Below, piece after piece: positions 31,961-52,363 of a DNA stretch of 64,000 nt. Made by a program: the position numbers and the translations under genes. Source of the stretch: Alphaproteobacteria bacterium MarineAlpha5_Bin12 (GTDB lineage Bacteria > Pseudomonadota > Alphaproteobacteria > HIMB59 > GCA-002718135); assembly GCA_002937855.1 (NCBI GenBank), contig PTKS01000001.1:97948-161947 (forward strand). The letters are read 5' to 3'. The notes beneath the pieces are model-generated. The model saw nothing but the letters and a program-made list of their open reading frames with translations, was not told where the DNA came from and searched no databases. Position 1 is the stretch's first letter. Each line of letters opens with the position of its first letter.

Positions 31961-32848
31961 ATGAAGAATAGTATTTATATCGATATTTTAAAAGAAAAAA
32001 ATAATTTCAATAATTATTTTAAAAAATTATTATCAAGCCAATTATCAACTACTTATCTTGAAAAAGTAATGGAATATAGTGCCTTAAATGGGGGTAAAAG
32101 AATCAGACCGTATTTAGTGAAACAATTTTCATTAATAAAAAAGATAAGATCTACTAATTATAACAGGGTTTCATCGGCAATTGAAATCATTCACTCCTAT
32201 TCTCTTATACATGATGACCTCCCAAGTATGGATAATGACGATTATAGAAGAGGTAAATTGAGTGCTCATAAAAAATATAACGAAGCTCAAGCAATTTTAG
32301 CTGGTGATAGTCTTCATGACCTTGCTTTTGAAATACTAGCAGATAAAAAAACCTGTAATGATACAAAAATAAGGATAGAAATAATAAAATATTTATCAAA
32401 ATCCATTGGTTCTAAAGGTTTGGCTGGGGGTCAATCCTTAGATTTAATTTATGAAAAGAAAAAGGTAAACATCAATGAAATTAAAAGGATGTATTTAATG
32501 AAAACTGGAGCTTTATTTAGATTTTGTTGCATTTCACCACTAATGATTGCTAATTCCTCTAAAAAAGAAATTGCTTTTGCATCTGATTATGGAAATTTTT
32601 TTGGTTTAATTTTTCAAATTGTAGATGATTTTATAGATATAAATGGAAACAAAAATAATATTGGAAAAACGCCTGGCAAAGATATTAAACAAATGAAAAG
32701 CACTTTTGCAAATTATTACAAAAATCAAAATATAAAGAAAGTTTGTTTTAAATTAAAATCAAATTTTTATAGTAAGCACAAATATTACTTAAATAAATGG
32801 AAAAAATTAGATAAAATTTTAGATTATTTAATTTCTCAGTTAAATTAA
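31961..32848 (+). CDS. ispA: (2E,6E)-farnesyl diphosphate synthase / polyprenyl synthetase
   Basis: 295-aa ORF. First Asp-rich motif LIHDDLPSMDNDDYRRG and second Asp-rich motif FQIVDDFID. Confidence 0.88.
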   Translation: MKNSIYIDILKEKNNFNNYFKKLLSSQLSTTYLEKVMEYSALNGGKRIRPYLVKQFSLIKKIRSTNYNRVSSAIEIIHSYSLIHDDLPSMDNDDYRRGKLSAHKKYNEAQAILAGDSLHDLAFEILADKKTCNDTKIRIEIIKYLSKSIGSKGLAGGQSLDLIYEKKKVNINEIKRMYLMKTGALFRFCCISPLMIANSSKKEIAFASDYGNFFGLIFQIVDDFIDINGNKNNIGKTPGKDIKQMKSTFANYYKNQNIKKVCFKLKSNFYSKHKYYLNKWKKLDKILDYLISQLN

Positions 32849-33726
32849 TTAGCTTTTTTTAAGTTCGGTTTCTTTAATTCTAAAATAGTGTGTATAAGCA
32901 ATGTAGATATAATTAAACTTCCTCCAATTATGGTTTCTAAACTTGGAGTTTCCCTAATAATTAACCAAACCCAAATGGGACCTAGAGTCGTTTCTAAAAC
33001 AAAAAATAATTCGACTTCATGTGCTGGCATGTATCTTGGAGCTAAAGTTAAAAATGCTAATGGTATAGTAACAAAAAAAACACACATTATTGGTACCAAA
33101 TAAATATCAGCTCCTTCAAGATATAAGGATTTAACAAAAAAAATAGTAAATAACATTGTAAAAAACTTTGCTATCATTAAAGAGGGTAAAAAATTTGCCA
33201 ACTTACCAATTCTAATAACAACTGAACTTGCCCCAACTAAAAATGCTGTTATAAAACCGAAAAAATCTCCTACAAGCCTTCCTGATTGATAAGAATCATT
33301 AAAAATAAATAAAACAAATATAAAACATAAAAACATAGCAATCCAAGTTCTTTTTTTCGGATATTCTTTTAATAAAAATATACTTAAAAATGCTGCCATA
33401 AATGGTGCTAAACTTAACATAACTAATGTATTAGCAACATTTGTGTTTTCTAAAGAAAAAATAAAAGTGATATTTGTTAAAGCTACAATTAAGGCATTAA
33501 TTAAACCTGCATAACCAATTATAAATATAGCTTTAAAAAAATTTTTTTTATAAAAAATTATCAAGCCAATTAATAAAATAAAAAAAGGGATAATGCCTCT
33601 GTAAAATACTAAATCCCAGGAGTTTATTTTAACTAATCTAATAAACAAAGAATCAGGAGTGATAATTAAAATACCTATTAATGATAAGAAAATACCTTTT
33701 TTTTGGTCAGATAAATTTTTAATCAT
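32845..33726 (-). CDS. EamA/DMT-family transporter (10 TM)
   Basis: 293-aa polytopic ORF. 4-nt overlap with the upstream aldolase-SDR gene. Confidence 0.75.
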   Translation of the reverse strand: MIKNLSDQKKGIFLSLIGILIITPDSLFIRLVKINSWDLVFYRGIIPFFILLIGLIIFYKKNFFKAIFIIGYAGLINALIVALTNITFIFSLENTNVANTLVMLSLAPFMAAFLSIFLLKEYPKKRTWIAMFLCFIFVLFIFNDSYQSGRLVGDFFGFITAFLVGASSVVIRIGKLANFLPSLMIAKFFTMLFTIFFVKSLYLEGADIYLVPIMCVFFVTIPLAFLTLAPRYMPAHEVELFFVLETTLGPIWVWLIIRETPSLETIIGGSLIISTLLIHTILELKKPNLKKAN

Positions 33727-35744
33727 CTTAAGCTTGCTTCAATATTTCCACCGTCAACTGTTATAATATTTCCTGTTGTTTTTTTTAATTTTGATTGAAA
33801 AACGAAAGCTTTTGCTACATCAAATGCGGTTACTTCTTTATTCAGAAGGTTTCCCTTCATATAGTTTTTTAAAGATAAATTTCTTGCTTTTGATCTTTTG
33901 ATTATCATTTTTTGAGTAAGTATTCCGCTTCTGATACGATCAGCATTTATTCCATTAAATCTAATATTATATTTACTATACTCTAAGGCATATTGTTTCA
34001 TTAAAAACAGAGTTGTAGATTTAGGTAGGCCATAAGGGCCAAAATTCTTTCCTGGATTAATTGATTGTTTAGAAATATTAAATAAAATTAAACCTCCAAA
34101 ATTTTGTTTTAAATAAATATTAACTGCATTTTGTGAAGCGTATTGATGGGAGAAAAAATTAATTTCAAAGCTATTTTTGATTATTTTTGAATCAACTTGA
34201 GCAATTTTGCCTTCAAATGCTTTTCCAGCATTAGAAATCAAAATATCTATTCCTCCATAAGTTTTAATTATGTTATTAAACGAATTTTTTACTTCAACAT
34301 TATTAGTGAGATTGCATTTTATAATTTTACATCTTTTAATTATATTTTCAGGAAGCCTTTTTATAGATTTTATATCATTATCTAATAAAACTACTTCGGC
34401 CCCCTCTTTTAAAAATTCTTGAGCAGTAGCAATTCCAATAGTTCCACAACCACCTGTAATTACAACAATATTTCCTTCTAATTCTAATTGTTTTCTATTC
34501 GTAATTTTGGCCATTTCTAAAGGCCAATATTCCATTTTAAATATTTCTTTTTGACTTATTGATTTAAAATTTCCTATTTTTGAAGCATCTTTTATCGAAT
34601 TGACCATTGATAAAAAAATATCTGCACCAATTTTAGTCTCTTTATAATTCCTATTGATACTTAATAATCCATAGCCAGGTAAAATTATAATTCTTGGTAA
34701 ATTATCAGTAATTTTAGAATTCTTAACAAATTTTTTATTTTTTTTAAAATAAATTTTATACTTTTTTATAAAATTAGTTATCTGCATCTCAATTAATTTA
34801 TTGGATAATTTATTGACATTTAAGATTAAAAAGAAAGGTTTTATTCTTATAACATGATCAGGTGTAACTGGACCTTTGTTTATAATTTGAAAAATATCTT
34901 TTCTTAAAGTAAAATCAATTATTTCTTTAGAATTATAAAAATTAAGTATAAATCTTTTTTTAGAAAACTTATAGACTGCTTTTCTTATTGCTGTAATTAC
35001 TTCTGAAATTTCAATATTTTTTTTAATGTAATTTTTTTTTAATTTTACTTCTTTTAATTTATTTATATATTTTTCAGCTTTATTCACATATTTAATCATT
35101 CGATCATAACTTTCTTTTGCACTTTCACCAAAAGTAAATATTCCATGATTTAATAATATCATACATTCTATACTTTTATTTTTATTAAATTCTTGTTTAG
35201 CTTTTTTAGCTAATTCAAACCCTGGCATAGTATAAGGAACAATAGAAATTTTTTTTCCAAAAACCTTATTGCATAAAGCTTTTGAATTTTTTTGATTTAC
35301 TATACTCAATATAGCTGAGGAATGAGTATGATCTATATATTTATGGGGTAAAAAAGCATGTAAAAGAGTTTCAACAGATGGATTTGGAGAAGTGGTATCA
35401 ATTAAATTTTTTCTGAGATAGTTAACCATATTTTTATCGTCTAGTTTTTTTAATTTTTCCACCTCCAGCAATGGTTTTAACTCTAAACAAGGCATACCAT
35501 TCTCATTTAGATTAGACATATCCCAGCCACTACCTTTTACGTATATAACGTCAATAATTTTTCCTGAAATATTTCTAAGATAGCCTTTTAACGATGTGTT
35601 GCCGCCACCATGTAAAACTAAGTTTTTTTCTCTTCCGAGTAAATGAGTTGAATATATTCTTAACGCGAGATTTTTATCTATCTTTTTCTTTTTGTATTCA
35701 TTAATATATCTTATTGATTCTTTTGGATTCCAATTATTTTTCAT
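33723..35744 (-). CDS. Bifunctional class II aldolase / short-chain dehydrogenase fusion (RhaD/YuxG-type architecture)
   Basis: 673-aa ORF. N-terminal LHGGGNTSLK and HAFLPHKYIDHTHS (class II aldolase Zn site). C-terminal SDR with VITGGCGTIGIA and YGLPK (YxxxK). Confidence 0.8.
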   Translation of the reverse strand: MKNNWNPKESIRYINEYKKKKIDKNLALRIYSTHLLGREKNLVLHGGGNTSLKGYLRNISGKIIDVIYVKGSGWDMSNLNENGMPCLELKPLLEVEKLKKLDDKNMVNYLRKNLIDTTSPNPSVETLLHAFLPHKYIDHTHSSAILSIVNQKNSKALCNKVFGKKISIVPYTMPGFELAKKAKQEFNKNKSIECMILLNHGIFTFGESAKESYDRMIKYVNKAEKYINKLKEVKLKKNYIKKNIEISEVITAIRKAVYKFSKKRFILNFYNSKEIIDFTLRKDIFQIINKGPVTPDHVIRIKPFFLILNVNKLSNKLIEMQITNFIKKYKIYFKKNKKFVKNSKITDNLPRIIILPGYGLLSINRNYKETKIGADIFLSMVNSIKDASKIGNFKSISQKEIFKMEYWPLEMAKITNRKQLELEGNIVVITGGCGTIGIATAQEFLKEGAEVVLLDNDIKSIKRLPENIIKRCKIIKCNLTNNVEVKNSFNNIIKTYGGIDILISNAGKAFEGKIAQVDSKIIKNSFEINFFSHQYASQNAVNIYLKQNFGGLILFNISKQSINPGKNFGPYGLPKSTTLFLMKQYALEYSKYNIRFNGINADRIRSGILTQKMIIKRSKARNLSLKNYMKGNLLNKEVTAFDVAKAFVFQSKLKKTTGNIITVDGGNIEASLR

Positions 35745-36823
35745 TATTCTAATAAAGATAATATTGAGTTTTTAGTTGCATCTACAACTTTTTTTTCAGT
35801 TATAATTTTATTAATAAATTTTGCGGGAGTTACATCAAAAGCATAATTTACAGATATTGAATTAGTTGGTGTTGTTCTTATTTTTGTAATTTTTCCTTCT
35901 TTGTCTAAACCTGTCATATATGATATTTCTTCTGAATCTCTTACTTCTATAGGAACTTGATTAATACCATCGTTCATTGAAAAATCAATACTCGAAATTG
36001 GTGCCGCAACATAGAAAGGAATATTGTTTTCTTTTGCTGCTAATGCTTTAAGATAAGTGCCTATTTTATTACAAACATCACCCGTTGCTGTAGTTCTATC
36101 AGTGCCTGTAATACAAACATCTACCATTTTATTTTGCATTAAATGTCCTCCAGTATTATCTACAACCAGTGAACAAGGTATCCCTTCATTCATTAATTCC
36201 CAAGCTGTTAAATTAAAACCTTGGTTTCTAGGTCTTGTTTCATCAACCCATATATGAAGAGGAATTCCTTTTCTGTGTGCCTTATATACTGGAGCTAATG
36301 CTGTACCCCAATCTACAGTGGCCAACCAACCTGCATTACAATGAGTTAAAACATTTACTTTATCTTTTTTCTTATCATAAATTTCGTTTAAAAGTTCAAA
36401 GCCATTATTGCCAATATTGTTGCAAGCATTTATGTCATCTTGTCTTATTTGATTTGCAAGATTTAAAATAGTATCAGTATTTTTTTCTTTGCTTTGATTT
36501 TTAATTTTATTTAAAATTTTTTTTACTGCCCATTCTATATTAACTGCAGTAGGTCTAGTATTAATTAATTCTTCACCAGTTTTAATTAAATTTTCATAAG
36601 AGCTGTCAATTTTTGAAGATAAATACATTCCATATGACGCTGTAACACCAATCAATGGCGCTCCTCTTACTTGCATTTCTTTTATGGCGAAAATTACGTC
36701 CTTTAGACTATTTAATTCTTGTATTTTTAATTCAAATGGAAGCAGTCTTTGGTCAATAATTTTGATATTTTCAGAATTATTATCCATCCATATTGTTTGC
36801 ATATTTTTATTATTTACTTTCAT
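35744..36823 (-). CDS. mtnA: S-methyl-5-thioribose-1-phosphate isomerase
   Basis: 359-aa ORF. IDQRLLP, MQVRGAPLIGVTASYG, GTDRTTATGDVCNKIGTY. Confidence 0.88.
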   Translation of the reverse strand: MKVNNKNMQTIWMDNNSENIKIIDQRLLPFELKIQELNSLKDVIFAIKEMQVRGAPLIGVTASYGMYLSSKIDSSYENLIKTGEELINTRPTAVNIEWAVKKILNKIKNQSKEKNTDTILNLANQIRQDDINACNNIGNNGFELLNEIYDKKKDKVNVLTHCNAGWLATVDWGTALAPVYKAHRKGIPLHIWVDETRPRNQGFNLTAWELMNEGIPCSLVVDNTGGHLMQNKMVDVCITGTDRTTATGDVCNKIGTYLKALAAKENNIPFYVAAPISSIDFSMNDGINQVPIEVRDSEEISYMTGLDKEGKITKIRTTPTNSISVNYAFDVTPAKFINKIITEKKVVDATKNSILSLLE

Positions 36824-37701
36824 TTATTATCTTTATTATATCTTTCTAAAATTGTTTTTAATTTTTTTCTAGTGTCTTTTTTCCAATATTTTTTTTGTGT
36901 AACTATTGAATTATTTAAAATAGAAGAAGTATTGTCAGCTCCAAAATCAATCCCTTTCGAATAAAGATAAGTAAATTTTTTAATAAAATTTAGAGCATTT
37001 TCACTATTATTTTTTAAATTTTTTAATAACATTTCAACATCAACAGATTCAAAATTATCATGCCAACAGTCATAGTCAGTAACCATTGAAATTGAACAAT
37101 ATCTCATTTCTGCTTCCCTAGCTAATTTTGCTTCTGGCATATTAGTCATCCCAATAACATCTGCATTCCAAGATTTATATAAAAGGGATTCTGATCTTGT
37201 AGAAAATTGAGGACCTTCAATTGCTACATAAGTCCCCATATATTGATTTCTTATATTTAATTCTTTTAAAACTTTTAAAGATAATTTCATTAAAATTTTT
37301 GAAGTTGGTTTTGCCATTGGAACATGAGCAACTATTCCATCTTTGAAAAAAGTTTTTTCTCTTAGCTGTGTTTTATCAATAAATTGATCAACAATTACGA
37401 ATGTTCCTGGAGATAATTTTTCTTTCAAAGAGCCTACAGCAGATAGAGAAATTAAATCGGTAACATTACACTTTTTTAAACATTCTATATTTGCTCGATA
37501 ATTTATTTCTTGAGGTGACAATTTGTGTCCCCTACCATGACGTGAAAGAAAATATACTTTCTGATTTCCAATTTTACCTTCTATGATTTTATCCGATGGT
37601 TTTCCAAAAGAAGATCTTATTGAAATAGCTTTTTTGTTTTTTATAAAATCTATATCATACAAACCACTTCCTCCTATAAATCCTAATATTTGATTATTCA
37701 T
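36820..37701 (-). CDS. mtnP: S-methyl-5'-thioadenosine phosphorylase
   Basis: 293-aa ORF. GFIGGSGLYD, FLSRHGRGH, GMTNMPEAKLAREAE. Confidence 0.88.
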   Translation of the reverse strand: MNNQILGFIGGSGLYDIDFIKNKKAISIRSSFGKPSDKIIEGKIGNQKVYFLSRHGRGHKLSPQEINYRANIECLKKCNVTDLISLSAVGSLKEKLSPGTFVIVDQFIDKTQLREKTFFKDGIVAHVPMAKPTSKILMKLSLKVLKELNIRNQYMGTYVAIEGPQFSTRSESLLYKSWNADVIGMTNMPEAKLAREAEMRYCSISMVTDYDCWHDNFESVDVEMLLKNLKNNSENALNFIKKFTYLYSKGIDFGADNTSSILNNSIVTQKKYWKKDTRKKLKTILERYNKDNK

Positions 37702-37714: not shown

Positions 37715-38743
37715 CTAAATTGATGGCCAAGTATCAGTTAAGCGATAGCCTTGAGGAAAGGGATTATTTTCATCTAAATATAATGTTTGTTCACCTGTTA
37801 TCCAAGCTTGGCCAGTTAAAACTGGCACTATTGCTTTAATGTTATTAATAGCAATTTCTTCTTTTATATAACATTCAAAAGAAGTCCCTAATATCGATTT
37901 TGACTCAAATAATTGTTGAATTTTAATTTGGTTTTTTTTATACATATACGCAAGCCTTGCTGAGCTACCAGTTCCACATGGAGATCTGTCAAGTTTTTTT
38001 GGTCTAATACATACTGTGTTTTTACCTTCCAGATTATCAAGAGAATTGATAAATGGTTTATCCATTAACATACAAAAAGAAATATAATTTAAATTATCTA
38101 ATTGCGGATGTTTGAAACCTAACTGTTCTGAAGCTGATTTTGTTATTTTTGAACAAATATCAACTATTTTATCTGCGTTTTCTGGTTTTATTTCTATATT
38201 TATATCTGAATTATTAACTAAAACAAAGCTATCACCTCCATAAGCTGTACTTACTGTTAAATCACCTAATCCAGGAACTGAAATGTTTTTATCTAAATCA
38301 ACCACAAATGAGGGTAAATTAGTAATAGATACCTTTTTTACTTTTTGATTTTCACATTCTGCTTCAACTTCTATTAATCCTCCTGGAGCTTCAAGTGTTA
38401 TCTTCATATTTGAATTTTTAATTGGAATAATATTTTTTTCTAAAAGCACAGTAGCTACACAAATAGAATTACTTCCAGACATTGGAGGTAAGTCCATTGG
38501 TTCCATTATAATAAAACCCATATCAGCTTTGGGGTTTTTAGGAGGAACAAGTAAATTAACATGTTTAAAAACACCACCTCTTGGCTCGTTCAATATAAAT
38601 TCCCATAATTTTTTATTTTTTTTTAAAAAATATGATTGTTCTAAAAGAGTTTTACCTGGCGGTGGTTCAACACCTTCAATTATTACATCGCCTACTTCAC
38701 CACAACAGTTAGCTGAGATCAATTTAATATTTCTCATGATCAA
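37715..38743 (-). CDS. Proline racemase-superfamily protein with a Ser/Cys (not Cys/Cys) catalytic pair
   Basis: 342-aa ORF. EPRGG. PPMSGSNS where the family has MCGH. DRSPCGTGSSA retained. Confidence 0.75.
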   Translation of the reverse strand: MIMRNIKLISANCCGEVGDVIIEGVEPPPGKTLLEQSYFLKKNKKLWEFILNEPRGGVFKHVNLLVPPKNPKADMGFIIMEPMDLPPMSGSNSICVATVLLEKNIIPIKNSNMKITLEAPGGLIEVEAECENQKVKKVSITNLPSFVVDLDKNISVPGLGDLTVSTAYGGDSFVLVNNSDINIEIKPENADKIVDICSKITKSASEQLGFKHPQLDNLNYISFCMLMDKPFINSLDNLEGKNTVCIRPKKLDRSPCGTGSSARLAYMYKKNQIKIQQLFESKSILGTSFECYIKEEIAINNIKAIVPVLTGQAWITGEQTLYLDENNPFPQGYRLTDTWPSI

Positions 38744-38758
38744 TATTAATTTTATAAA

Positions 38759-39610
38759 TTATATATTTTTACTAACTAGATAAACAAATATTAAAGACGT
38801 TGCAAACATTATTAGACTATACGTTGCTGCTGGGATTAGATAAACCCCTCCTCCAAAAATTGAAGTAGCAACTACAATTGCTAATGTTCCATTCTGCAAG
38901 CCACATTCTATAGTAATCGATTTTCTTTGTTTTTTACCTGAACCCAATAATTTAGCTATATAGAATGCAAAACTCATCATAATTAAATTTAATACTAAAG
39001 TTATTGCACCTGCTTGTGAAAAATAAGAAACTATATTTTCTCTTTCGGATAGGATTGCTCCCATTAATACTAAAACAAATAATCCTGCTGAAATTTTTTT
39101 TGCTAATGGCTCAAAAGATAAAGAAGTTTTAGATAAAAATTTCTTGCAGGTCATTCCTAAAAGCACTGGAACAGTAACTATAAGAAACATGCTCAAGGCA
39201 ATATCCATTAAATTAATATTCTGATTCCCAATATCTGTAGATAAAAAATCAACTGATGTAATGATTATAAAAGGAATAGTAAAAACACATAGCAAACTTA
39301 TAATAGCTGTAAGAGAGATTGATAAAGCAACATCCCCCTTTGCAAAAGAAGTGAGAATATTTGAAGTTGCACCTCCTGGTGCCGCAGCAATTATCATTAC
39401 TCCTATTGCCAATTCGGGGCTCAATGGCCAAAAGCTTACTAATAATAATGCAATTAATGGAAGTGCAATTATTTGAGAAAAAGCCCCTACGAAAAAATCT
39501 TTAGGTTGTTTTGCAACCCTCAAAAAATCCTCCCCAGTCAAACCTAAACCAAGAGAAAACATTATGAATGCTAAAGCCAATGGTAATATAACATCTGTAA
39601 TAATTCCCAT
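38759..39610 (-). CDS. Bile acid:Na+ symporter (BASS)-family transporter
   Basis: 283-aa polytopic ORF. AAPGGATSN and ECGLQNG motif regions typical of BASS. Confidence 0.75.
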   Translation of the reverse strand: MGIITDVILPLALAFIMFSLGLGLTGEDFLRVAKQPKDFFVGAFSQIIALPLIALLLVSFWPLSPELAIGVMIIAAAPGGATSNILTSFAKGDVALSISLTAIISLLCVFTIPFIIITSVDFLSTDIGNQNINLMDIALSMFLIVTVPVLLGMTCKKFLSKTSLSFEPLAKKISAGLFVLVLMGAILSERENIVSYFSQAGAITLVLNLIMMSFAFYIAKLLGSGKKQRKSITIECGLQNGTLAIVVATSIFGGGVYLIPAATYSLIMFATSLIFVYLVSKNI

Positions 39611-40949: not shown

Positions 40950-42233
40950 TTATACCTTATCAAGGGGGTAAGAACTCAATAGTTCTAATCCATTATCTGT
41001 AATTAAGTACTCATCTTCTAATTTTACACCCTCTTTACCTCCAACTTCTCCTATATAACTCTCTACAGATATAATCATATTCTTTTGAAATATTCCGCTA
41101 AAATCTCCATTACTAAAATCTTCATTCGGATAAGAAATACAAGGATATTCATCACACATTCCCACTCCATGTACTTGACAGGGATAATGGTTATCAAAAC
41201 AATTTTCTGGAAGTTTCCAAGCTTTTTCTGCAAACTCTAAAAAAGTTGTACCATTTTTGATTATTTTTTCATTATGTTTTATATTTTCTAACGCTAGATC
41301 ATGTAATCTCTTTTGTTTGTCATTTAATTTATGGCCCTCTACAAAAGTCCTTGAAATATCTGCACAATAACCGTAAGGCCCAACCATATCAGTATCAAAA
41401 GCTACAATATCCCCCTTTTGAATTATTCTATTGCTACATTCTTGAAACCATGGATTTGTTCTTTGACCTGAGGCTAGCAATCTAGTTTCAATCCACTCTC
41501 CTCCATTTTCAATATTAGTTTTATGAAGAAATGACCACAATTCTTCCTCAGTTATTCCTGCTTTTAATTCTTCATAAATTTTTGAAATTCCCTTCTCTGC
41601 TGTTTTAAGAGAAGCCCTCATGCACATAATTTCGTCTTCTGATTTTATGCATCTAGCAGTTTCCATAAATTTTTGGGCATGAATTATTTTATAAGAAAAA
41701 TTAGAAGTTAATGATTCCATAGCTACAGGATCAATAGTGTCAATTGCTAAAACTTTATTTTCAGACACATACATTTTCATCAAATCATCAACTATGTTTG
41801 CCCATCTTTTTGCGTTTCTATTTAAATTTTCACCTGCAGAAAAATAATCCCAAGTTTCTGCAAATCTAACTTCATCAACTGTGCAAAAATCTTTTGATAA
41901 ATTTGCACATTTTGGATACTCAAATAGAATTACAGGACCGCTAGCTGGTACAAAAAGATATCTTGTCATTATGTGCATAGCAAATAAACTCATATTTCTA
42001 GTATCTGTAGCATATCGTATATTAATTGGATCAAATAAAATACATGCCCCCACATCATGTTTAACAAGCTGATCTCTTACCCTATTTAATCTATACATTC
42101 GCATCCGATCAAAATCGATTTTATCTTCATATAACCTAGGTTTGAAAGATTCTTGATTAGCAATTGGTTCATTTTTTTCACCAATTTTTGGACCTATCCG
42201 TCTCTGATAATTTTTATTTCCTATTAAATTCAT
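40950..42233 (-). CDS. M24B (creatinase/prolidase-fold) metalloenzyme, DddP-like (candidate DMSP lyase)
   Basis: 427-aa ORF. FDPINIRYATD, GGEWIETRLLASGQRTNPWFQEC. Full five-ligand metal set FDTD...ADISR...VHGVG...SVE...LED. See the finding for the DddP-specific residue pattern. Confidence 0.6.
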   Translation of the reverse strand: MNLIGNKNYQRRIGPKIGEKNEPIANQESFKPRLYEDKIDFDRMRMYRLNRVRDQLVKHDVGACILFDPINIRYATDTRNMSLFAMHIMTRYLFVPASGPVILFEYPKCANLSKDFCTVDEVRFAETWDYFSAGENLNRNAKRWANIVDDLMKMYVSENKVLAIDTIDPVAMESLTSNFSYKIIHAQKFMETARCIKSEDEIMCMRASLKTAEKGISKIYEELKAGITEEELWSFLHKTNIENGGEWIETRLLASGQRTNPWFQECSNRIIQKGDIVAFDTDMVGPYGYCADISRTFVEGHKLNDKQKRLHDLALENIKHNEKIIKNGTTFLEFAEKAWKLPENCFDNHYPCQVHGVGMCDEYPCISYPNEDFSNGDFSGIFQKNMIISVESYIGEVGGKEGVKLEDEYLITDNGLELLSSYPLDKV

Positions 42234-46596: not shown

Positions 46597-47352
46597 TTAG
46601 GGTTTCGCAGTCACACCACCATCTACTACAATTTCCGTACCAGTAATGTATTGACTTTCATCGCTTAACAAAAACATTACACAACTACTAATATCTTTAG
46701 GCTTTCCTACCCTTCTCAAAGGTATATTTTCTTCTAAATTTTTTTTCAGTTTTGGGTTTTTTTTCCATCTATCTTGCATTGGTGTATTAATTGCTCCTGG
46801 TAAGATAACATTAGACCTGCAATTAGAACCAGCGAATTGTATAGCTATAGATTTAGAAATTCTAATCATTGCTGCTTTTGAGGATCCGTAAGCGTCTTGA
46901 GGTTTATTATCGCCTGATAAAGCATCAATGGATGATATGTGAACCATTGAGCCAAATTTATTTTTTTTCATCTTAGGTATAATTAATTTACATAGGGATA
47001 CCATTGTTTTAAGATTAATATCATACACTTTATCCCAAATTTCAAAATCAATATCTATTAAAGAAACATCTTTTTCAAACCACAAAACTCCAGTTGTGTT
47101 CACTAAATAATCTATTGAATTATTCTCTTTATAGAATTTATTTATTATTTTTTTTAATTCTTTAAAATTTGTTAAATCTATTTTTTTGAAAATCATATAT
47201 TTGTTTTTTTTTAGAAATTTTTTTGGAGGTTCTTTAATATCTAGCATCAAAGTTTTGATTTTATTATTTGATAGTCTTTCTGATATATCAAGCCCCATCC
47301 CTCCTGATGACCCAGTAACAATTGCACTTTTTCCTAAGTAATTAAGTTTCAT
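46597..47352 (-). CDS. Short-chain dehydrogenase/reductase
   Basis: 251-aa ORF. VTGSSGGMGL and YGSSK (YxxxK). Confidence 0.8.
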   Translation of the reverse strand: MKLNYLGKSAIVTGSSGGMGLDISERLSNNKIKTLMLDIKEPPKKFLKKNKYMIFKKIDLTNFKELKKIINKFYKENNSIDYLVNTTGVLWFEKDVSLIDIDFEIWDKVYDINLKTMVSLCKLIIPKMKKNKFGSMVHISSIDALSGDNKPQDAYGSSKAAMIRISKSIAIQFAGSNCRSNVILPGAINTPMQDRWKKNPKLKKNLEENIPLRRVGKPKDISSCVMFLLSDESQYITGTEIVVDGGVTAKP

Positions 47353-47458: not shown

Positions 47459-48892
47459 ATGAAGAAATTTCAAAGCTATATTAATGGTACCTGGATTGAT
47501 AGTTCCACTGGAGAAATAATAGTTGTCGATAATCCAGCAACTGAAGAAATAGTAGGTGAAGTTGCTTGTGCTAGTAATGAAGATGTTGACTTAGCAGTAG
47601 AAGCTGCAAAAAAGTCATTTCTAAAAAGAGATTTAGTAGATATGCATCCAATGGAGAGATCAAAATTAATGCGATCTATTGCGATAGAGCTTAGAAATAT
47701 CTCTAAAGAAGCAGGAAAGTTGCTTTGTTATGAAAATGGAAAACTTTTATCAGGTGCAGAATATGAATTTCAAGATGCTGCAAATTATTTTGATTATTAT
47801 GGTGGACTAACAGATAAGCTAGAAGGATCAACAATCCCTGTTTCAAAAGGAGTTGTGGATTATACAATCTTGGAACCCTATGGTGTATCAGCTCATATAA
47901 TTCCTTGGAACTACCCTATCTCAATGATCGGAAGATCATTAGCGTGTTCAATTGCCACTGGTAATTCAACTGTAATTAAAACTCCTGAACTCGCTCCTTT
48001 AGCAGCTACTTCTTATTTTGCAGAAGCACTTGAAAAAGCTGGGATCCCTAAAGGAACAGTAAACATAATTTGCGGATATGGAGAAAAAACAGGTTCTTAT
48101 CTTGTGTCACACCCTGATGTAAATCATATAGCTTTCACTGGATCAGTTGAAACAGGAAAGAAAATATTGCATGCAGCTGCAGATAAAGCGATACCTGCAG
48201 TAGTAGAATTAGGGGGGAAATCAGCTGGAATTGTTTATCCTGATGCAGATTTAGATAAAGTGGTTAATAGTGCAAAAACTGCAATTTTTGGTGTAGCAGG
48301 ACAAATTTGCTCTGCTATGTCTAGGTTAGTTGTTCATAAATCTGTTAAGGATGAATTAGTTGATAAGCTGGTTAATTTGACAAAATCTCTAAAAGTAGGT
48401 GCTGGATATGAAAAAGGTGTTGATTGCACCCCTGTAATTTCAAAAAATCAATTAGAAAAAGTTGAGGGTTATGCAAGATCAGGAATTCAGGCAGGGGCAG
48501 AGGCAGTTGCGGGTGGTAAAAAGATTGAAGGAAAAGGATATTTTTTTGAATCAACTGTATTAGATGGCGTAAAACAAGATATGACTGTTGCTAGAGAAGA
48601 AATTTTTGGACCAGTTTTATCAATAATAGAATATGAAGATTCAGATGAAGCAATACAAATTGCAAACGACACAGATTATGGGCTTGCTGCAGGTGTATTT
48701 ACAAAAAATATAGACCAAGCAACAGAAGCATCAAATAAATTAGAGGCAGGTCAAATTTATGTTAATAGCTGGTTTACAGGAAGTATTGCAACTCCCTTCG
48801 GTGGATATAAACAATCTGGTTACAGTCGTGAAAAAGGACAACAAGCATTAAAAAGCTACCTTCAAGTTAAGAATGTAGGTATTCAACTTTAA
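47459..48892 (+). CDS. NAD(P)-dependent aldehyde dehydrogenase
   Basis: 477-aa ORF. ELGGKSA and catalytic-Cys region GQICSAMSR. Confidence 0.88.
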   Translation: MKKFQSYINGTWIDSSTGEIIVVDNPATEEIVGEVACASNEDVDLAVEAAKKSFLKRDLVDMHPMERSKLMRSIAIELRNISKEAGKLLCYENGKLLSGAEYEFQDAANYFDYYGGLTDKLEGSTIPVSKGVVDYTILEPYGVSAHIIPWNYPISMIGRSLACSIATGNSTVIKTPELAPLAATSYFAEALEKAGIPKGTVNIICGYGEKTGSYLVSHPDVNHIAFTGSVETGKKILHAAADKAIPAVVELGGKSAGIVYPDADLDKVVNSAKTAIFGVAGQICSAMSRLVVHKSVKDELVDKLVNLTKSLKVGAGYEKGVDCTPVISKNQLEKVEGYARSGIQAGAEAVAGGKKIEGKGYFFESTVLDGVKQDMTVAREEIFGPVLSIIEYEDSDEAIQIANDTDYGLAAGVFTKNIDQATEASNKLEAGQIYVNSWFTGSIATPFGGYKQSGYSREKGQQALKSYLQVKNVGIQL

Positions 48893-50135: not shown

Positions 50136-51026
50136 TTATCTTGCTTTTATACCGCGAAGTCTTTCTGCTCTTCGTCGGAGAATTTCAACAGTGGACAACA
50201 ATAAAATAGATAAAACAACTAAACATGTAGCCATACATAAAATAACGGGGCTTATTTCTTGCCTTATACCTGCCCACATTTGCTTAGGTATCGTTAGTTG
50301 ATCAAGACTTGCCATAAACATCACAATTACCACCTCATCAAATGATGTAATAAAGGCAAATAAAGCTCCCGATATCACTCCTGGTAAAATTAGAGGCATG
50401 ATAACTTTGAAGAAAGTTCTAATTGGTTTTGCTCCTAAACTTTGAGAAGCTTTAGTCATATTTGTATCAAACCCTACAAGCGTCGCGGTTACTGTAATAA
50501 CAACAAATGGTGTTGCAAGTGCTACGTGGGCCATAATAATTCCTGTAAATGTATAAACAAGATTAAATCTTGCATAAAAGAAAAACATACCTGCAGCAGT
50601 AATGATCAAAGGCACTATCATTGGAGATATCAAGATTGACATTATTAAGCCCTTGTAAGGCATATGTGGTCTACTTAAACCCAATGCAGCTAATGTGCCC
50701 AATGAAGTTGCAATAAATGTAGATGTTAATCCAACAAAAAAACTGTTTACTGTTGCATACATCCATTTATTACCACATGGAGTTGTAAGACTTTTATCAG
50801 TACAAATTCCAACCATATATCTATACCATCGTAATGACCAGGCTTCTGGATCAGGGGGAAAAGTAAGCATACCTTCAGTAAAAATCATAAAAGGTGATAC
50901 ACTAAATGATATAGGGATTATCGCTACTAATGGTGCGATAAGGAAAAAAAATACAGTTCCACAAAAGAATAAATAAAAATAATAAAATAATCTTTGTCCT
51001 GAGGTTGTGTAACTAGGTAATGCCAT
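50136..51026 (-). CDS. ABC transporter permease (PotC-like)
   Basis: 296-aa polytopic ORF. EAA-loop region SQSLGAKPIRTFFKVIMPLILPG. Confidence 0.85.
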   Translation of the reverse strand: MALPSYTTSGQRLFYYFYLFFCGTVFFFLIAPLVAIIPISFSVSPFMIFTEGMLTFPPDPEAWSLRWYRYMVGICTDKSLTTPCGNKWMYATVNSFFVGLTSTFIATSLGTLAALGLSRPHMPYKGLIMSILISPMIVPLIITAAGMFFFYARFNLVYTFTGIIMAHVALATPFVVITVTATLVGFDTNMTKASQSLGAKPIRTFFKVIMPLILPGVISGALFAFITSFDEVVIVMFMASLDQLTIPKQMWAGIRQEISPVILCMATCLVVLSILLLSTVEILRRRAERLRGIKAR

Positions 51027-51028
51027 TT

Positions 51029-52303
51029 TTATCCTAACTTTATATTATCAATTCCAACTATTTTATTATACAACCAATACAAAACTAACATTAAAACTAA
51101 AAGAATGCTCCCTAAAGCGGAGCATAAACCCCAATTTAAAGTAGTCTTTAGATGATATGCTATCCAGTGACCAATTAATTGTCCATCCTTGCCTCCTACT
51201 AATGCAGGAGTAATATAGTAACCTATTGCTAAAACAAATACTAATAAACCTCCAGCGCTTATTCCTGGAATTGTCTGCGGTAAGTATACTTTATAAAAAG
51301 CGCGAGCTGGTTTAGCTCCCAAATTTTGCGCAGCTCTCATATGACTCTTAGGAATTACTTTCATAACACTGTAAAGAGGTAAAATCATAAAAGGTAGAAG
51401 TATTTGCGTCATTGCTATTATAGTACCTGTCATATTGTATACCATTTGAATTCTCTGATCATCGTTAATGATTCCTAACCAAACCAATATACCATTTATT
51501 ACCCCATTTTGTTGAAGCATCACAATCCACGCGGTTGTTCGAACAAGTAAAGAAGTCCAAAAAGGTAATAAAACAAATATCATTAATAAATTACTATACC
51601 GAAGAGGAAGGTTAGCTAATAAATGAGCTACTGGAAAACCTAAAATTAAGCAAAAAAATGTCACGTAAATACTTACTTCAAGCGTTCTCCACCAAGTTCT
51701 TACATATATTCTTCTCTCTTCATTTTGTTTGACTACACTTCCATCTATATCGAAAGTCCTATCCATTGCATTCCAATAATAAATAGAAGTAGTTTCATTA
51801 ATCATTTGATTCATTGCAATCCAAAAAGTAGGATCACCCCAGCCTTTATGAATTTCTATCAATGTATCTTTATAGGAAACCGGTAATTCTCCAGATTTTA
51901 CAATCTTTTTTATTTGTCTTCTTGTTTTCTTAATCAGACTTTTCCAACCTGACTTAGAATAATTCATTCGCGTTAGAGCTTTACCAACTTGAATACCTTC
52001 TCCAGTTGCTAATTCATCAAAAATTGCTCTATAAACCTCTTCTGGGGGCAAATCCTGTCCATCCCATTTTTCATATTCTTCAAATGTTTTTGGAAAAACT
52101 GTGTTAATGTGACTATCATCAACACTTCTCATAAGCATATCGCCTATGGGCACAACAAATGTTATTAAAATAAATAACAATAGAGGAAAAACCAAAAGAA
52201 AGGCTCTAAGCTTATTCTTTCTTTCTGTTTTTTTGAGACTTACTCTTAATGGTATGCCATCAGTTGTTAATATTTCAGTATTAGTTGTAATTTTGACCTC
52301 CAA
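51029..52303 (-). CDS. ABC transporter permease (PotB-like) with a ~150-aa extracytoplasmic insertion after TM1
   Basis: 424-aa ORF. EAA-loop AQNLGAKPARAFYKVYLPQTIPG. Only a TTG start (52303) precedes TM1, so the start is uncertain. Confidence 0.8.
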   Translation of the reverse strand: MEVKITTNTEILTTDGIPLRVSLKKTERKNKLRAFLLVFPLLLFILITFVVPIGDMLMRSVDDSHINTVFPKTFEEYEKWDGQDLPPEEVYRAIFDELATGEGIQVGKALTRMNYSKSGWKSLIKKTRRQIKKIVKSGELPVSYKDTLIEIHKGWGDPTFWIAMNQMINETTSIYYWNAMDRTFDIDGSVVKQNEERRIYVRTWWRTLEVSIYVTFFCLILGFPVAHLLANLPLRYSNLLMIFVLLPFWTSLLVRTTAWIVMLQQNGVINGILVWLGIINDDQRIQMVYNMTGTIIAMTQILLPFMILPLYSVMKVIPKSHMRAAQNLGAKPARAFYKVYLPQTIPGISAGGLLVFVLAIGYYITPALVGGKDGQLIGHWIAYHLKTTLNWGLCSALGSILLVLMLVLYWLYNKIVGIDNIKLG

Positions 52304-52307
52304 ATAA

Positions 52308-52332
52308 AAAGGCGAGAACTAATCTCGCCTTT
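52308..52332 (-). terminator. Intra-operon rho-independent terminator/attenuator after the binding-protein gene
   Basis: 10-bp stem AAAGGCGAGA / TCTCGCCTTT with a 5-nt loop. On the minus strand it is followed by TTATTTGG. Lies 31 nt after the SBP stop. Confidence 0.7.
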
Positions 52333-52363
52333 AAATTAAATCATGTTTTGTATTAAATCAAGC

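What the first reader, a model, noticed from the sequence alone, without database searches (positions are those of the whole stretch)
33723..37701. mtnP-mtnA translationally coupled to an aldolase-SDR fusion: candidate single-polypeptide DHAP shunt for methylthioadenosine
Seen in sequence:
- mtnP, mtnA and a 673-aa gene are chained by 4-nt (36820-36823) and 1-nt (35744, TAATG) overlaps.
- An EamA transporter follows with another 4-nt overlap (33723-33726).
- The 673-aa protein fuses a class II aldolase domain (GGGNTS, HAFLPHKYIDHTHS) to a classical SDR (TGGCGTIG, YGLPK).
- No mtnB/C/D, RuBisCO-like protein or cupin follows.

Established knowledge:
- MtnP plus MtnA yield methylthioribulose-1-P.
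- In the DHAP shunt (Rhodospirillum/Rhodopseudomonas, some E. coli), a stand-alone class II aldolase cleaves this to DHAP plus 2-(methylthio)acetaldehyde, and a separate dehydrogenase reduces the aldehyde.
- The fused architecture is otherwise known from rhamnulose-1-P aldolase/lactaldehyde dehydrogenase (YuxG/RhaEW type).

Inference:
- The rhamnose-type fusion has been recruited here to do both post-isomerase steps on MTRu-1-P (and possibly 5-deoxyribulose-1-P).
- The EamA protein would export methylthioethanol or methylthioacetate.
- In an organism of the SAR11 type, which depends on exogenous reduced sulfur, the fate of this methylthio group matters physiologically.
- As far as I know, a fused form of the shunt has not been characterised.
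Basis: partly seen in the sequence, partly recalled or inferred. Interest (0 to 1): 0.75.

Follow-up and report, generated by a model that had tools for sequence, protein, structure and literature searches.

The report
Fused aldolase-dehydrogenase in methylthioadenosine breakdown operon
A SAR11-type marine bacterium encodes, in one tightly overlapping operon, the first two enzymes of methylthioadenosine recycling followed by a two-domain aldolase/dehydrogenase, and genome comparisons suggest this fusion does the next two steps, which would be an uncharacterised variant of the known "DHAP shunt".

Summary
Four minus-strand genes, mtnP, mtnA, a 673-aa class II aldolase/SDR fusion and an EamA transporter, are joined by ATGA, TAATG and ATGA overlaps.

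The fusion is neither a rhamnose enzyme nor an Ald2 orthologue. It passes NCBIfam NF006192 (function unassigned) and fails the rhamnulose equivalogs. It is 28% identical to a true rhamnose-locus member and has no significant similarity to E. coli Ald2.

Comparative genomics supports a role after MtnA:
- All 14 informative close relatives have mtnA directly upstream.
- 33 of 79 species-representative loci (35-51% identity) carry mtnA, mtnP or mtnK within 8 kb. None carries rhamnose genes.
- Four different cluster layouts recur. They include adenine phosphoribosyltransferase, a SAM-decarboxylase/spermidine-synthase gene, and an MtnK + ABC importer + MtnR-like regulator set.
- No locus has a second class II aldolase.

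All catalytic residues are conserved. By analogy with RhaEW, the likely products are DHAP plus 2-(methylthio)acetate, or acetate from 5'-deoxyadenosine.

Caveats: there is no biochemistry, sister paralogue clades sit in other sugar clusters, EamA is conserved only in the nearest relatives, and the rest of the genome was not seen.

Verdict: a new variant of a known pathway, and readily testable.

The parts
36820..37701 (-). mtnP, 5'-methylthioadenosine (and probably 5'-deoxyadenosine) phosphorylase, 293 aa
   Evidence: Pfam PNP_UDP_1 E 2.5e-38. The top six NCBIfam hits are all MTA or MTI phosphorylase models, and all are slightly below their cutoffs. NCBI sources name it S-methyl-5'-thioadenosine phosphorylase. 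It is conserved upstream of mtnA in 10 of 11 close relatives with enough flank.
35744..36823 (-). mtnA, S-methyl-5-thioribose-1-phosphate isomerase, 359 aa. Its start overlaps the mtnP stop (ATGA).
   Evidence: NF004326 432 bits (cutoff 271) and TIGR00512 393 bits (cutoff 279). 50% identical (E 3e-137) to the MtnA encoded in the E. coli SE15 mtnK-mtnA-ald2 operon. Junction read.
33723..35744 (-). 673-aa bifunctional class II aldolase / NAD-type short-chain dehydrogenase. Proposed MTRu-1-P / 5-deoxyribulose-1-P aldolase plus aldehyde dehydrogenase.
   Evidence: NF006192 813 bits (cutoff 639). TIGR02632 RhaD_aldol-ADH 399 bits, below its cutoff of 568. AF2 model pLDDT 85, pTM 0.83. Context census.
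35073..35633 (-). Aldolase_II domain of the fusion (aa 38-224)
   Evidence: Pfam PF00596 E 1.2e-19. 3m4r (N-terminal class II aldolase domain, T. acidophilum) matches by sequence at E 6e-50 and by Foldseek at TM 0.93. GGGNTS, E125, H139, H141 and H200 are conserved in 39 of 39 mtn-linked homologues.
34500..35072 (-). Conserved middle region of the fusion (aa 225-415). It has no Pfam family and belongs to the aldolase half.
   Evidence: Invariant motifs GPVTPDHVIR, DPxPR and EYWxLE. The region is confidently modelled. Stand-alone 414-aa aldolase + middle proteins exist on S. meliloti pSymB (H18-H20).
33747..34469 (-). Classical SDR domain of the fusion (aa 426-666)
   Evidence: adh_short E 1.3e-30. 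TGxxxGIG, D455 at the end of beta-2 (NAD preference), N529, S558, Y571 and K575 are conserved in 38 or 39 of 39 mtn-linked homologues. All 15 columns that discriminate mtn-linked from rhamnose-type/deep members lie in this domain.
32845..33726 (-). EamA/DMT-family transporter, 293 aa. Its start overlaps the fusion stop (ATGA). It is a possible product exporter, but only weakly linked.
   Evidence: Pfam EamA E 1.2e-14. Junction read. It is found after the fusion only in L094 (98% id) and L002/L003 (64% id), and not in the other close relatives.
37715..39610 (-). Two co-directional upstream genes: a proline-racemase-family gene (37715-38743) and an SBF transporter (38759-39610). They may share the transcript but are probably unrelated in function.
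   Evidence: Gaps of 13 and 15 nt. Pfam Pro_racemase and SBF. The trans-3-hydroxy-L-proline dehydratase model scores 467, below its cutoff of 550. These genes are not conserved upstream of mtnP in relatives; in L004 an aldehyde dehydrogenase sits there.

Best explanation
The operon encodes a compact, Ald2-independent version of the DHAP shunt for the 5'-deoxynucleoside by-products of S-adenosylmethionine.

Proposed steps:
1. MtnP phosphorolyses methylthioadenosine (and probably 5'-deoxyadenosine) to adenine plus 5-methylthioribose-1-P (or 5-deoxyribose-1-P).
2. MtnA isomerises this to the ribulose-1-phosphate.
3. The N-terminal RhaE-type, Zn-dependent class II aldolase half of the 673-aa protein cleaves it to DHAP plus 2-(methylthio)acetaldehyde (or acetaldehyde).
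4. The fused NAD-type SDR half converts the aldehyde at once. By analogy with RhaEW, this is most likely oxidation to 2-(methylthio)acetate (or acetate). That would pull the reversible aldol cleavage forward and avoid a free reactive aldehyde.
5. In this lineage the EamA protein may export the acid.

What is shown: gene order and overlaps, family membership, intact catalytic residues, and recurrent linkage of this subfamily to mtnA, mtnP, mtnK, apt and speDE.

What is inferred: the substrate, the aldolase (rather than dehydratase) chemistry, the oxidative direction, and export.

Confidence 0.65 is for the pathway role of the fusion. Within that, I put oxidation against reduction at about 60:40.
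For: **Linkage in close relatives.** All 14 informative loci at >=55% identity have mtnA directly upstream, with a gap of at most 20 nt or an overlap. 10 of 11 with enough flank also have mtnP. This clade is monophyletic in 100 of 100 bootstraps.

**Linkage in distant relatives.** Of 79 GTDB species-representative loci at 35-51% identity, mtnA lies within 8 kb in 30, mtnP in 18 and mtnK in 10. Any of the three is present in 33. Among the 50 loci with both flanks >=6 kb, 22 have at least one. Chance expectation is roughly 0.006 per locus.

**Four different layouts converge on the same partners.**
- mtnP-mtnA-fusion.
- mtnP-apt-mtnA-fusion (10 loci).
- SorC regulator + ribose-type ABC importer + mtnK-mtnA with the fusion (10 loci; mtnK and mtnA are annotated as such in Pararhizobium).
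- In Pelagibacteraceae single-cell genomes, a SAM-decarboxylase/spermidine-synthase gene divergent from the fusion, with mtnA, mtnP and apt downstream.

**Parallels with E. coli.** The SorC regulator is 32% identical (E 7e-55) to E. coli MtnR/YjhU, the DHAP-shunt repressor.

**No competing aldolase.** No locus and no part of the window holds another class II aldolase.

**Not a rhamnose enzyme.** Rhamnose genes are found in 0 of 79 loci. A true rhamnose-locus member is only 28% identical.

**Curated models follow context.** mtn-linked members pass NF006192, the FGGY-linked member passes NF006195, and the rhamnose member passes NF006189/TIGR02632.

**Catalytic machinery is intact.** All catalytic residues of both domains are conserved in 39 of 39 mtn-linked members (S558 in 38). 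All 15 columns that discriminate mtn-linked from rhamnose-type members lie in the SDR domain.

**Biochemical precedent.** RhaEW oxidises its aldehyde with NAD+, shows no activity with NADH, and needs NAD+ for DHAP release (PMC3870299).

**The field has a gap here.** It still lists the enzyme that converts 2-methylthioacetaldehyde as unknown (PMC13474568, PMC5893883).
Against: - No biochemical or genetic data exist for any NF006192 member.
- The aldolase domain is not related to Ald2 at the BLASTP level (E 0.74). The assignment therefore rests on context alone.
- From established aldolase stereochemistry, L-rhamnulose-1-P is L-threo at C3-C4 (RhaD type). MTRu-1-P is D-erythro (FucA type, as Ald2 is). 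A RhaE-type fold would need a different C4 preference.
- Sister paralogue clades at 48-54% identity sit in other sugar clusters (FGGY kinase + Fe-ADH; PfkB + GFO + transketolase + RLP), so specificity changes quickly in this family.
- 46 of the 79 diverse loci show no mtn gene within 8 kb.
- Only 13 of the well-conserved columns separate mtn-linked members from the paralogues G3 and G4.
- EamA is not a conserved partner.
- The rest of the genome, which could hold mtnB/C/D or ald2, was not available.
Confidence: 0.65

Rival explanations
1. Same pathway position, but the SDR domain reduces the aldehyde with NADH to 2-(methylthio)ethanol (or ethanol). This is what happens, through an unidentified alcohol dehydrogenase, in Rhodospirillum, Rhodopseudomonas and aerobic E. 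coli. It is a variant of the best explanation, not an alternative to the pathway role.
For: In all characterised DHAP shunts the product observed in vivo is the alcohol. SDRs typically interconvert alcohols and carbonyls. The substrate-pocket residues of the mtn-linked clade differ from those of RhaW, so the RhaW precedent may not carry over.
Against: The only characterised family member oxidises its aldehyde and is inactive with NADH. The NAD-type Asp455 is invariant across the family. An irreversible oxidation explains the fusion better, because it pulls the aldol equilibrium forward.
Confidence: 0.25
2. The fusion cleaves a different ketose-1-phosphate made by the same neighbours. One example is D-ribulose-1-P from ordinary nucleosides (ribose-1-P), giving DHAP plus glycolaldehyde and then glycolate. 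The operon would then be a nucleoside-pentose catabolic route and not MTA/5'-dAdo salvage.
For: MtnP is slightly below every MTAP equivalog cutoff. Some relatives carry a nucleoside hydrolase and an ABC importer (L001, L153), which suggests uptake of external nucleosides or sugars. MTAP-family enzymes are often promiscuous. Ribulose-1-P aldolases of the class II family are known (NCBIfam NF053831 is listed).
Against: MtnA passes the MtnA equivalog cutoffs. The kinase in the kinase-type clusters is a true MtnK, with the GDGNLN motif, and is annotated mtnK. MtnK phosphorylates C1 of 5-deoxy or 5-thio pentoses. Linkage to the SAM-decarboxylase/spermidine-synthase gene and to apt points to MTA specifically.
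Confidence: 0.1
3. It is an ordinary RhaEW-type deoxyhexose enzyme (rhamnulose-1-P or fuculose-1-P aldolase / lactaldehyde dehydrogenase), as JGI and COG annotation says. Its position beside mtnA would then be incidental.
For: Same three-part architecture and the same catalytic residues as RhaEW. JGI names homologues 'rhamnose utilization protein RhaD'.
Against: It is below both rhamnulose equivalog cutoffs and 28% identical to a true rhamnose-locus protein. No rhaI, rhaM or rhamnulokinase occurs in 79 loci or in the window. The mtnA adjacency recurs in many lineages and in several layouts.
Confidence: 0.03
4. The N-terminal half acts as an MtnB-like dehydratase, not an aldolase, and the SDR half reduces the resulting diketone. 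This would be an unknown branch of methionine salvage.
For: MtnB shares the class II aldolase fold and the metal site. A weak MtnB HMM hit exists (TIGR03328, E 0.0014).
Against: The similarity to RhaE-type aldolases is far stronger (252 bits against 18). No mtnC, mtnD, mtnW or mtnX partner occurs in the window or in any locus.
Confidence: 0.04

Closest known systems
RhaEW / YuxG (bifunctional L-rhamnulose-1-phosphate aldolase / L-lactaldehyde dehydrogenase; TIGR02632, NF006189; Rodionova et al. 2013, PMC3870299)
   Same: Same architecture: class II aldolase, a conserved middle region, then a classical NAD-type SDR. The metal, acid-base and N-S-Y-K residues are the same. The logic is the same: cleave a ketose-1-P to DHAP and oxidise the aldehyde at once.
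   Different: Only about 28% identical and below both equivalog cutoffs. It is never found in rha loci and is found beside mtnA, mtnP or mtnK instead. The SDR substrate-pocket columns differ systematically (for example Y-G-L vs Y-S-A, M629/G631 vs R/R, L609 vs W). The proposed substrate has the opposite C4 configuration.
DHAP shunt of Rhodospirillum rubrum, Rhodopseudomonas palustris and ExPEC E. coli (MtnP, or MtnN+MtnK; MtnA; Ald2; unidentified alcohol dehydrogenase)
   Same: The same first two enzymes: the window MtnA is 50% identical to the MtnA encoded in the E. coli shunt operon. The operon logic is the same. The kinase-type clusters have a homologous SorC/MtnR-type regulator and a sugar importer. 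The proposed DHAP product is the same.
   Different: Ald2 is a 213-aa stand-alone FucA-subfamily aldolase with no significant similarity to the fusion (E 0.74). The aldehyde step there is a separate, still unidentified enzyme that gives the alcohol. Here it is fused and probably gives the acid.
5-deoxyribose salvage DrdK-DrdI-DrdA of Bacillus thuringiensis (Beaudoin et al. 2018, PMC6079011)
   Same: A kinase, isomerase and class II aldolase cluster that turns a radical-SAM by-product into DHAP plus acetaldehyde. It parallels the MtnK-type clusters that contain the fusion.
   Different: DrdA is a stand-alone aldolase and no dehydrogenase is fused to it. No sequence comparison with DrdA was made here.
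Fusion enzymes of methionine salvage (Tetrahymena MtnBD, MtnAK; Arabidopsis DEP1 = MtnB-MtnC)
   Same: Precedent for fusing a class II aldolase-fold domain to the next enzyme of MTA recycling.
   Different: Those fusions keep the sulfur on the path to methionine (dehydratase chemistry). This one is predicted to split the carbon skeleton.

Membership tests
RhaEW (TIGR02632 / NF006189 rhamnulose-1-P aldolase / lactaldehyde dehydrogenase) | Aldolase_II + middle region + SDR in one polypeptide of about 680 aa | tested here: met
   Pfam domains and full-length alignment to the models.
RhaEW (TIGR02632 / NF006189 rhamnulose-1-P aldolase / lactaldehyde dehydrogenase) | Score at or above the curated equivalog cutoff | tested here: not met
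   TIGR02632 399.4 vs 567.75, and NF006189 392.8 vs 634. A true rhamnose-locus protein scores 1209 and 1295.
RhaEW (TIGR02632 / NF006189 rhamnulose-1-P aldolase / lactaldehyde dehydrogenase) | Encoded within rhamnose utilisation loci (rhaA/rhaI, rhaB/kinase, rhaM, rhamnose transporter) | tested here: not met
   None in the window. RhaI, RhaM and rhamnulokinase are found in 0 of 79 relatives' loci.
RhaEW (TIGR02632 / NF006189 rhamnulose-1-P aldolase / lactaldehyde dehydrogenase) | Cleaves L-rhamnulose-1-P and oxidises L-lactaldehyde with NAD+ | not testable with these tools
   Needs an enzyme assay.
NCBIfam NF006192 (PRK08324.1-6, 'bifunctional aldolase/short-chain dehydrogenase', no function assigned) | Full-length score above the curated cutoff of 639 bits | tested here: met
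   813.1 bits over residues 1-673. Other mtn-linked members score 783-1149.
DHAP shunt (MTA/5'-dAdo to DHAP + aldehyde) | MTA phosphorylase (MtnP), or nucleosidase + MtnK | tested here: met
   PNP_UDP_1, and all best hits are MTAP models. It is marginally below the cutoffs (267.8 vs 274.85 for TIGR01694).
DHAP shunt (MTA/5'-dAdo to DHAP + aldehyde) | MTR-1-P isomerase MtnA | tested here: met
   Passes NF004326 and TIGR00512. 50% identical to the MtnA of the E. coli shunt operon.
DHAP shunt (MTA/5'-dAdo to DHAP + aldehyde) | Ald2: a stand-alone FucA-like class II aldolase of about 210 aa | tested here: not met
   No stand-alone class II aldolase in the window or in any related locus. The fusion against E. 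coli Ald2 gives BLASTP E 0.74.
DHAP shunt (MTA/5'-dAdo to DHAP + aldehyde) | A class II aldolase active site encoded next to mtnA (functional equivalent of Ald2) | tested here: met
   E125, H139, H141, H200 and the GGGNTS phosphate loop are conserved 39 of 39. The gene overlaps mtnA.
DHAP shunt (MTA/5'-dAdo to DHAP + aldehyde) | Formation of DHAP and 2-(methylthio)acetaldehyde or acetaldehyde from MTRu-1-P or 5dRu-1-P | not testable with these tools
   Needs an enzyme assay or labelled feeding.
Canonical methionine salvage (MtnB, MtnC or MtnW/X, MtnD) | Dehydratase, enolase-phosphatase and acireductone dioxygenase genes | tested here: not met
   Absent from the 64-kb window. The rest of the genome could not be examined. 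The supplement of the 135-genome Pelagibacter study was inconclusive.
Classical NAD(H)-preferring SDR | TGxxxGxG, Asp at the end of beta-2, NAG, and the catalytic Asn-Ser-Tyr-Lys | tested here: met
   T430-G431...G437, D455, N505-A-G507, N529, S558, Y571 and K575 are all conserved. The fold matches NAD-bound SDRs.

The most novel reading that the evidence does not exclude
SAR11-type bacteria and many other Alphaproteobacteria dispose of methylthioadenosine through a fused aldolase/aldehyde dehydrogenase. This would make 2-(methylthio)acetate, a so far unrecognised organosulfur metabolite.

The gene that follows the fusion would decide the fate of that product:
- An EamA exporter (this window): reduced sulfur is excreted into seawater by an organism that cannot reduce sulfate.
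- The abundant, uncharacterised 138-aa protein with an invariant His/Glu set (most of the clade): it processes the alpha-methylthio-carbonyl product, possibly releasing methanethiol for re-assimilation.

The same fusion family, paired with other kinases, transketolase and RuBisCO-like proteins, would be a general 'ketose-1-P to DHAP + acid' module.
Probability: 0.2. Interest if true: 0.8.

Novelty: new variant of a known kind. Interest (0 to 1): 0.62.

Why it matters
- **A candidate for a missing enzyme.** The DHAP shunt is regarded as a prevalent bacterial route for the toxic SAM by-products MTA and 5'-deoxyadenosine. Its aldehyde-handling enzyme is still listed as unknown. This finding supplies a concrete candidate in which that step is fused to a non-orthologous aldolase.

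- **A function for a large unassigned family.** It proposes a function for a curated but unassigned protein family (NF006192). The wider fusion family has 699 clusters at 50% identity with E <= 1e-30. The family is currently mislabelled 'RhaD', 'glucose 1-dehydrogenase' or left generic.

- **Sulfur economy in SAR11.** SAR11 cannot reduce sulfate. Whether the methylthio group of MTA is lost, excreted as a new compound or recovered therefore affects both cell sulfur economy and the marine dissolved organosulfur pool.

- **Testability.** The hypothesis can be tested directly with three recombinant proteins and commercially available MTA.

Tried and rejected
- **Broad alignment for the genome scan.** A 15-sequence alignment worked.
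- **ORF-based census.** It lost the fusion in 11 high-GC loci and was replaced by tblastn.
- **Promoter and terminator scan.** Uninformative in this AT-rich DNA: 41 promoter-like sites against 58 expected, and no internal terminator.
- **Rfam.** No riboswitch near the operon; only RNase P RNA and one tRNA elsewhere in the window.
- **Key distribution paper.** North et al. 2020 (PMC7237333) is not held. A prior mention of fused forms there cannot be excluded.
- **Look-up of a window gene for annotating 44-64 kb.** It failed and was replaced by Pfam scans.
- **Aldehyde dehydrogenase as a conserved partner.** Rejected: it occurs in one locus only.
- **Cupin hypothesis for the 138-aa neighbour.** It fits at motif level only. 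There is no Pfam, PDB or fold match and the model is poor (pLDDT 57). Left as inconclusive.
- **'All mtn-linked members form one clade that excludes other contexts'.** Rejected: FGGY-linked and TK/RLP-linked clades are interspersed.
- **Supplement of the 135-genome Pelagibacter study.** It did not settle the presence of mtnB/C/D.
- **Specificity positions against the closest paralogues.** Only 13 columns differ, which is too few to draw a pocket-level conclusion.

Full report
**1. Observation**

The region holds four minus-strand ORFs:
- 36820-37701 (293 aa)
- 35744-36823 (359 aa)
- 33723-35744 (673 aa)
- 32845-33726 (293 aa)

Reading the junctions confirms an ATGA overlap between the first two genes, a TAATG overlap between the second and third, and an ATGA overlap between the third and fourth.

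The proteins are as follows:
- A PNP_UDP_1 phosphorylase. All its best NCBIfam hits are MTA phosphorylase models, though it is marginally under their cutoffs.
- A bona fide MtnA (NF004326 432 bits vs cutoff 271; TIGR00512 393 vs 279).
- An Aldolase_II + adh_short fusion.
- An EamA transporter.

Two further co-directional genes precede mtnP, with gaps of 13 and 15 nt: a proline-racemase family gene and an SBF transporter. They are not conserved partners in relatives.

The rest of the 64-kb window is housekeeping and transport. It contains no stand-alone class II aldolase, MtnC/MtnD-type gene, RuBisCO-like protein, MtnK, Apt or spermidine synthase. No riboswitch lies nearby.

Exact copies of these proteins are recorded from 'Pelagibacteraceae bacterium' and 'MarineAlpha5_Bin12' MAGs. 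The window is 21-35% G+C. The SAR11-type attribution is therefore reasonable.

**2. What the fusion is**

It matches the curated NCBIfam model NF006192, 'bifunctional aldolase/short-chain dehydrogenase' (813 bits, cutoff 639). This model has no assigned function. The fusion fails the two rhamnulose-specific equivalogs (399 vs 568; 393 vs 634).

The aldolase half alone still finds only fusion-family models strongly. Stand-alone RhaD, FucA, MtnB and ribulose-1-P aldolase models score at E 4e-8 to 0.09.

A real Ald2, taken from the E. coli SE15 mtnK-mtnA-ald2 operon, is a FucA-subfamily protein with no significant similarity to the fusion (E 0.74). The two MtnA proteins are 50% identical. If the fusion does Ald2's job, it is a non-orthologous replacement.

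The AlphaFold model is confident (pLDDT 85, pTM 0.83). Its N-terminus superposes on 3m4r, the N-terminal class II aldolase domain of a Thermoplasma homologue (TM 0.93). Its C-terminus superposes on NAD-bound SDRs. No full-length member of the family has been solved.

Conserved residues in all 39 mtn-linked homologues (S558 in 38):
- The phosphate loop GGGNTS.
- Glu125, His139, His141 and His200. These align with the PSSE...HxH...H pattern of FucA-type enzymes (my reading of the motifs).
- The SDR TGxxxGIG motif, Asp455 (NAD preference), Asn529, Ser558, Tyr571 and Lys575.

**3. Context census**

The family is large: 699 clusters at 50% identity with E <= 1e-30.

*Close relatives.* A metagenome scan shows that every locus at >=55% identity with enough upstream sequence has mtnA directly upstream (14 of 14). 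10 of 11 also have mtnP. This clade is monophyletic in 100 of 100 NJ bootstraps.

*Diverse relatives.* A scan of GTDB species representatives returned 80 loci at 35-51% identity. Counts among the 79 with a full-length fusion:

| Feature within 8 kb of the fusion | Loci |
|---|---|
| mtnA | 30 |
| mtnP | 18 |
| mtnK | 10 |
| any of the three | 33 |
| any of the three, among the 50 loci with both flanks >=6 kb | 22 |
| RhaI, RhaM or rhamnulokinase | 0 |

A rough chance expectation is 0.006 per locus.

*Recurring layouts:*
- mtnP-mtnA-fusion.
- mtnP-apt-mtnA-fusion (10 loci).
- A SorC regulator, a ribose-type ABC importer and mtnK-mtnA next to the fusion, in Rhizobiales and Rhodobacterales (10 loci). 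In Pararhizobium the RefSeq annotation itself says mtnK and mtnA.
- In Pelagibacteraceae single-cell genomes, a SAM-decarboxylase/spermidine-synthase gene divergent from the fusion, with mtnA, mtnP and apt downstream.

The SorC regulator is 32% identical (E 7e-55) to E. coli YjhU/MtnR, the experimentally shown DHAP-shunt repressor.

An HMM of the aldolase domain finds no second class II aldolase in any locus.

*Annotated anchors fix the other subfamilies:*
- A Rhizobium phaseoli protein in a true rhamnose locus (rhaI, rhaM, rhaS, kinase) is 28% identical and passes the rhamnulose equivalogs.
- A Rhizobium sp. BT04 protein next to an FGGY kinase and an Fe-ADH passes NF006195.

**4. Limits of the association**

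The mtn-linked members are not one exclusive clade. In the enlarged tree the window's clade (G1+G2) has two low-GC sister clades, each with 100% bootstrap support:
- G4, beside an SDR, an FGGY kinase and an Fe-ADH.
- G3, beside two GFO oxidoreductases, a xylose-isomerase-like TIM barrel, a PfkB kinase, a split transketolase and a RuBisCO-like protein.

Each clade thus travels with its own enzymes for making a ketose phosphate. This fits a general 'ketose-1-P to DHAP + oxidised aldehyde' module whose specificity follows the clade. It also means function cannot be transferred across the whole of NF006192.

Other limits:
- 46 of the 79 diverse loci have no mtn gene nearby (for example Reyranella, Pseudolabrys next to RNase E, and Nitrospinaceae).
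- All columns that separate mtn-linked from rhamnose-type/deep members lie in the SDR domain: Y-G-L vs Y-S-A after the catalytic Tyr, M629/G631 vs R/R, L609 vs W, and R603 gained. This is what a change of aldehyde substrate would predict.
- Against the closest paralogues only 13 conserved columns differ. Seven of them are aldolase-domain changes in G4, near the catalytic Glu and His residues.

**5. Mechanism**

Shown: the operon structure, the families and the intact active sites.

Inferred:
1. MtnP gives adenine + MTR-1-P.
2. MtnA gives MTRu-1-P.
3. The aldolase half gives DHAP + 2-(methylthio)acetaldehyde.
4. The SDR half converts the aldehyde.

For the last step, the only biochemical precedent in the family is RhaEW. 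It oxidises lactaldehyde to lactate with NAD+, is inactive with NADH, and releases no DHAP without NAD+. With the family-invariant NAD-type Asp455, I favour oxidation to 2-(methylthio)acetate at about 60:40 over reduction to the alcohol. The alcohol is the product seen in characterised shunts.

5'-Deoxyadenosine would be handled in the same way, giving acetate. Radical-SAM genes lie near two more distant members, which is only suggestive.

A caveat from established aldolase stereochemistry: rhamnulose-1-P is L-threo at C3-C4, whereas MTRu-1-P is D-erythro, the FucA/Ald2 type.

**6. EamA**

EamA follows the fusion only in the window's nearest relatives (98% and 64% identity). In 16 other loci of the same clade, a conserved 138-aa protein followed by a DUF1330 protein takes that position after a 5-7 nt gap.

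That 138-aa protein belongs to an abundant marine family with no annotation. It has invariant H60, H65, H67, E82 and H105. The pattern looks cupin-like, but there is no Pfam, PDB or fold support and the model is poor. The exporter idea is therefore plausible for this lineage only, and it is not established.

**7. Literature and novelty**

Reviews and primary papers up to July 2026 describe Ald2 as stand-alone and the aldehyde-converting enzyme as putative or unknown. None of the held DHAP-shunt, methionine-salvage or SAR11 papers that I searched mentions a fused form or this gene. The main distribution paper, North et al. 2020, could not be read.

I classify this as a new variant of a known kind. 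The pathway logic is known and the fusion architecture is known. The combination is uncharacterised, and it involves a non-orthologous aldolase.

Whether the organism also has mtnB/C/D or ald2 elsewhere remains untested.

Noticed in passing
L099:6352-6768 (also L095-L110 and L132-L136, directly after the fusion); not present in the window: A conserved 138-aa hypothetical protein follows the fusion after 5-7 nt in 16 loci of the window's clade. A DUF1330 protein follows it. The family is abundant in marine metagenomes (1107 hits, some 90% clusters with thousands of members). It has no Pfam family and has invariant H60, H65, H67, E82 and H105, which look cupin-like. The structure model was poor and no fold match was found.
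   Followed up: partly
L107:1845-11062 and L129 (paralogue clade G3, 50-52% identical to the window protein): The fusion is embedded in a cluster of two GFO/MocA oxidoreductases, a xylose-isomerase-like TIM barrel, a PfkB kinase, a split transketolase and a RuBisCO-like protein. This is an apparently different sugar pathway that uses the same aldolase/SDR module.
   Followed up: partly
L090 (Pararhizobium qamdonense plasmid p3, NZ_CP119568.1 256185-261616): mtnK-mtnA are followed in the same direction by a split transketolase (annotated as a DXS N-terminal-like protein plus a transketolase C-terminal domain protein) and a RuBisCO-like protein. A SorC regulator and the fusion lie next to them. 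MTR may be fed into two branches here.
   Followed up: no
L073, L080, L084 (Chlorobiaceae MAGs): A RuBisCO-like protein lies 1.2-1.4 kb downstream of a member of this fusion family in green sulfur bacteria.
   Followed up: no
L011, L020, L021, L032 (Pelagibacteraceae genomes), about 6870-8000: A single gene fuses S-adenosylmethionine decarboxylase to spermidine synthase (Pfam AdoMet_dc + Spermine_synth). It is divergently adjacent to the aldolase/SDR fusion. mtnA, mtnP and apt lie on the other side, which makes a compact cluster of MTA-related genes.
   Followed up: partly
L142 (metagenome contig, 35% identical, deep branch): A distant member of the fusion family also has mtnK (117 bp), mtnA (1.2 kb) and a transketolase (2.9 kb) downstream. 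The mtn linkage therefore occurs outside the main clade too.
   Followed up: no
L001 and L153 (58-65% identical relatives): A variant of the window's cluster replaces mtnP with an MtnK-like kinase, an inosine-uridine nucleoside hydrolase and an SBP_bac_1-type ABC importer upstream of mtnA-fusion. This suggests uptake of external 5'-deoxynucleosides or 5-deoxypentoses.
   Followed up: partly
window 40950-42233 (-): An M24-family metallopeptidase that one source names 'dimethylsulfoniopropionate lyase DddP'. A second M24/creatinase-like gene lies at 60202-61440.
   Followed up: no
window 37715-39610 (-): A proline-racemase-family protein lies directly upstream of mtnP. Its best hit is the trans-3-hydroxy-L-proline dehydratase model (467 bits, below the 550 cutoff). 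An SBF-family transporter lies upstream of it. The gaps are 13-15 nt, so these genes may share the transcript.
   Followed up: partly
window 32845-32848: The 3' ends of the EamA gene (minus strand) and a polyprenyl synthetase gene (31961-32848, plus strand) overlap convergently by 4 nt. No room is left for a terminator between them.
   Followed up: no
window 50136-54683 (-) and 54773-55642 (+): A PotABCD-like ABC importer (SBP_bac_8, two permeases, an ATPase with a TOBE domain) and a second EamA transporter. A stand-alone aldehyde dehydrogenase (47459-48892) and an SDR (46597-47352) lie nearby.
   Followed up: no
plasmid hits H18-H20 (Sinorhizobium meliloti pSymB-type replicons): Stand-alone 414-aa proteins correspond to the aldolase plus middle region of the fusion without the SDR domain. 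This shows that the middle region belongs to the aldolase half.
   Followed up: no
window 6827-7176 (-) and 15899-15972 (-): Bacterial RNase P RNA (class A, 307 bits) and one tRNA gene.
   Followed up: no
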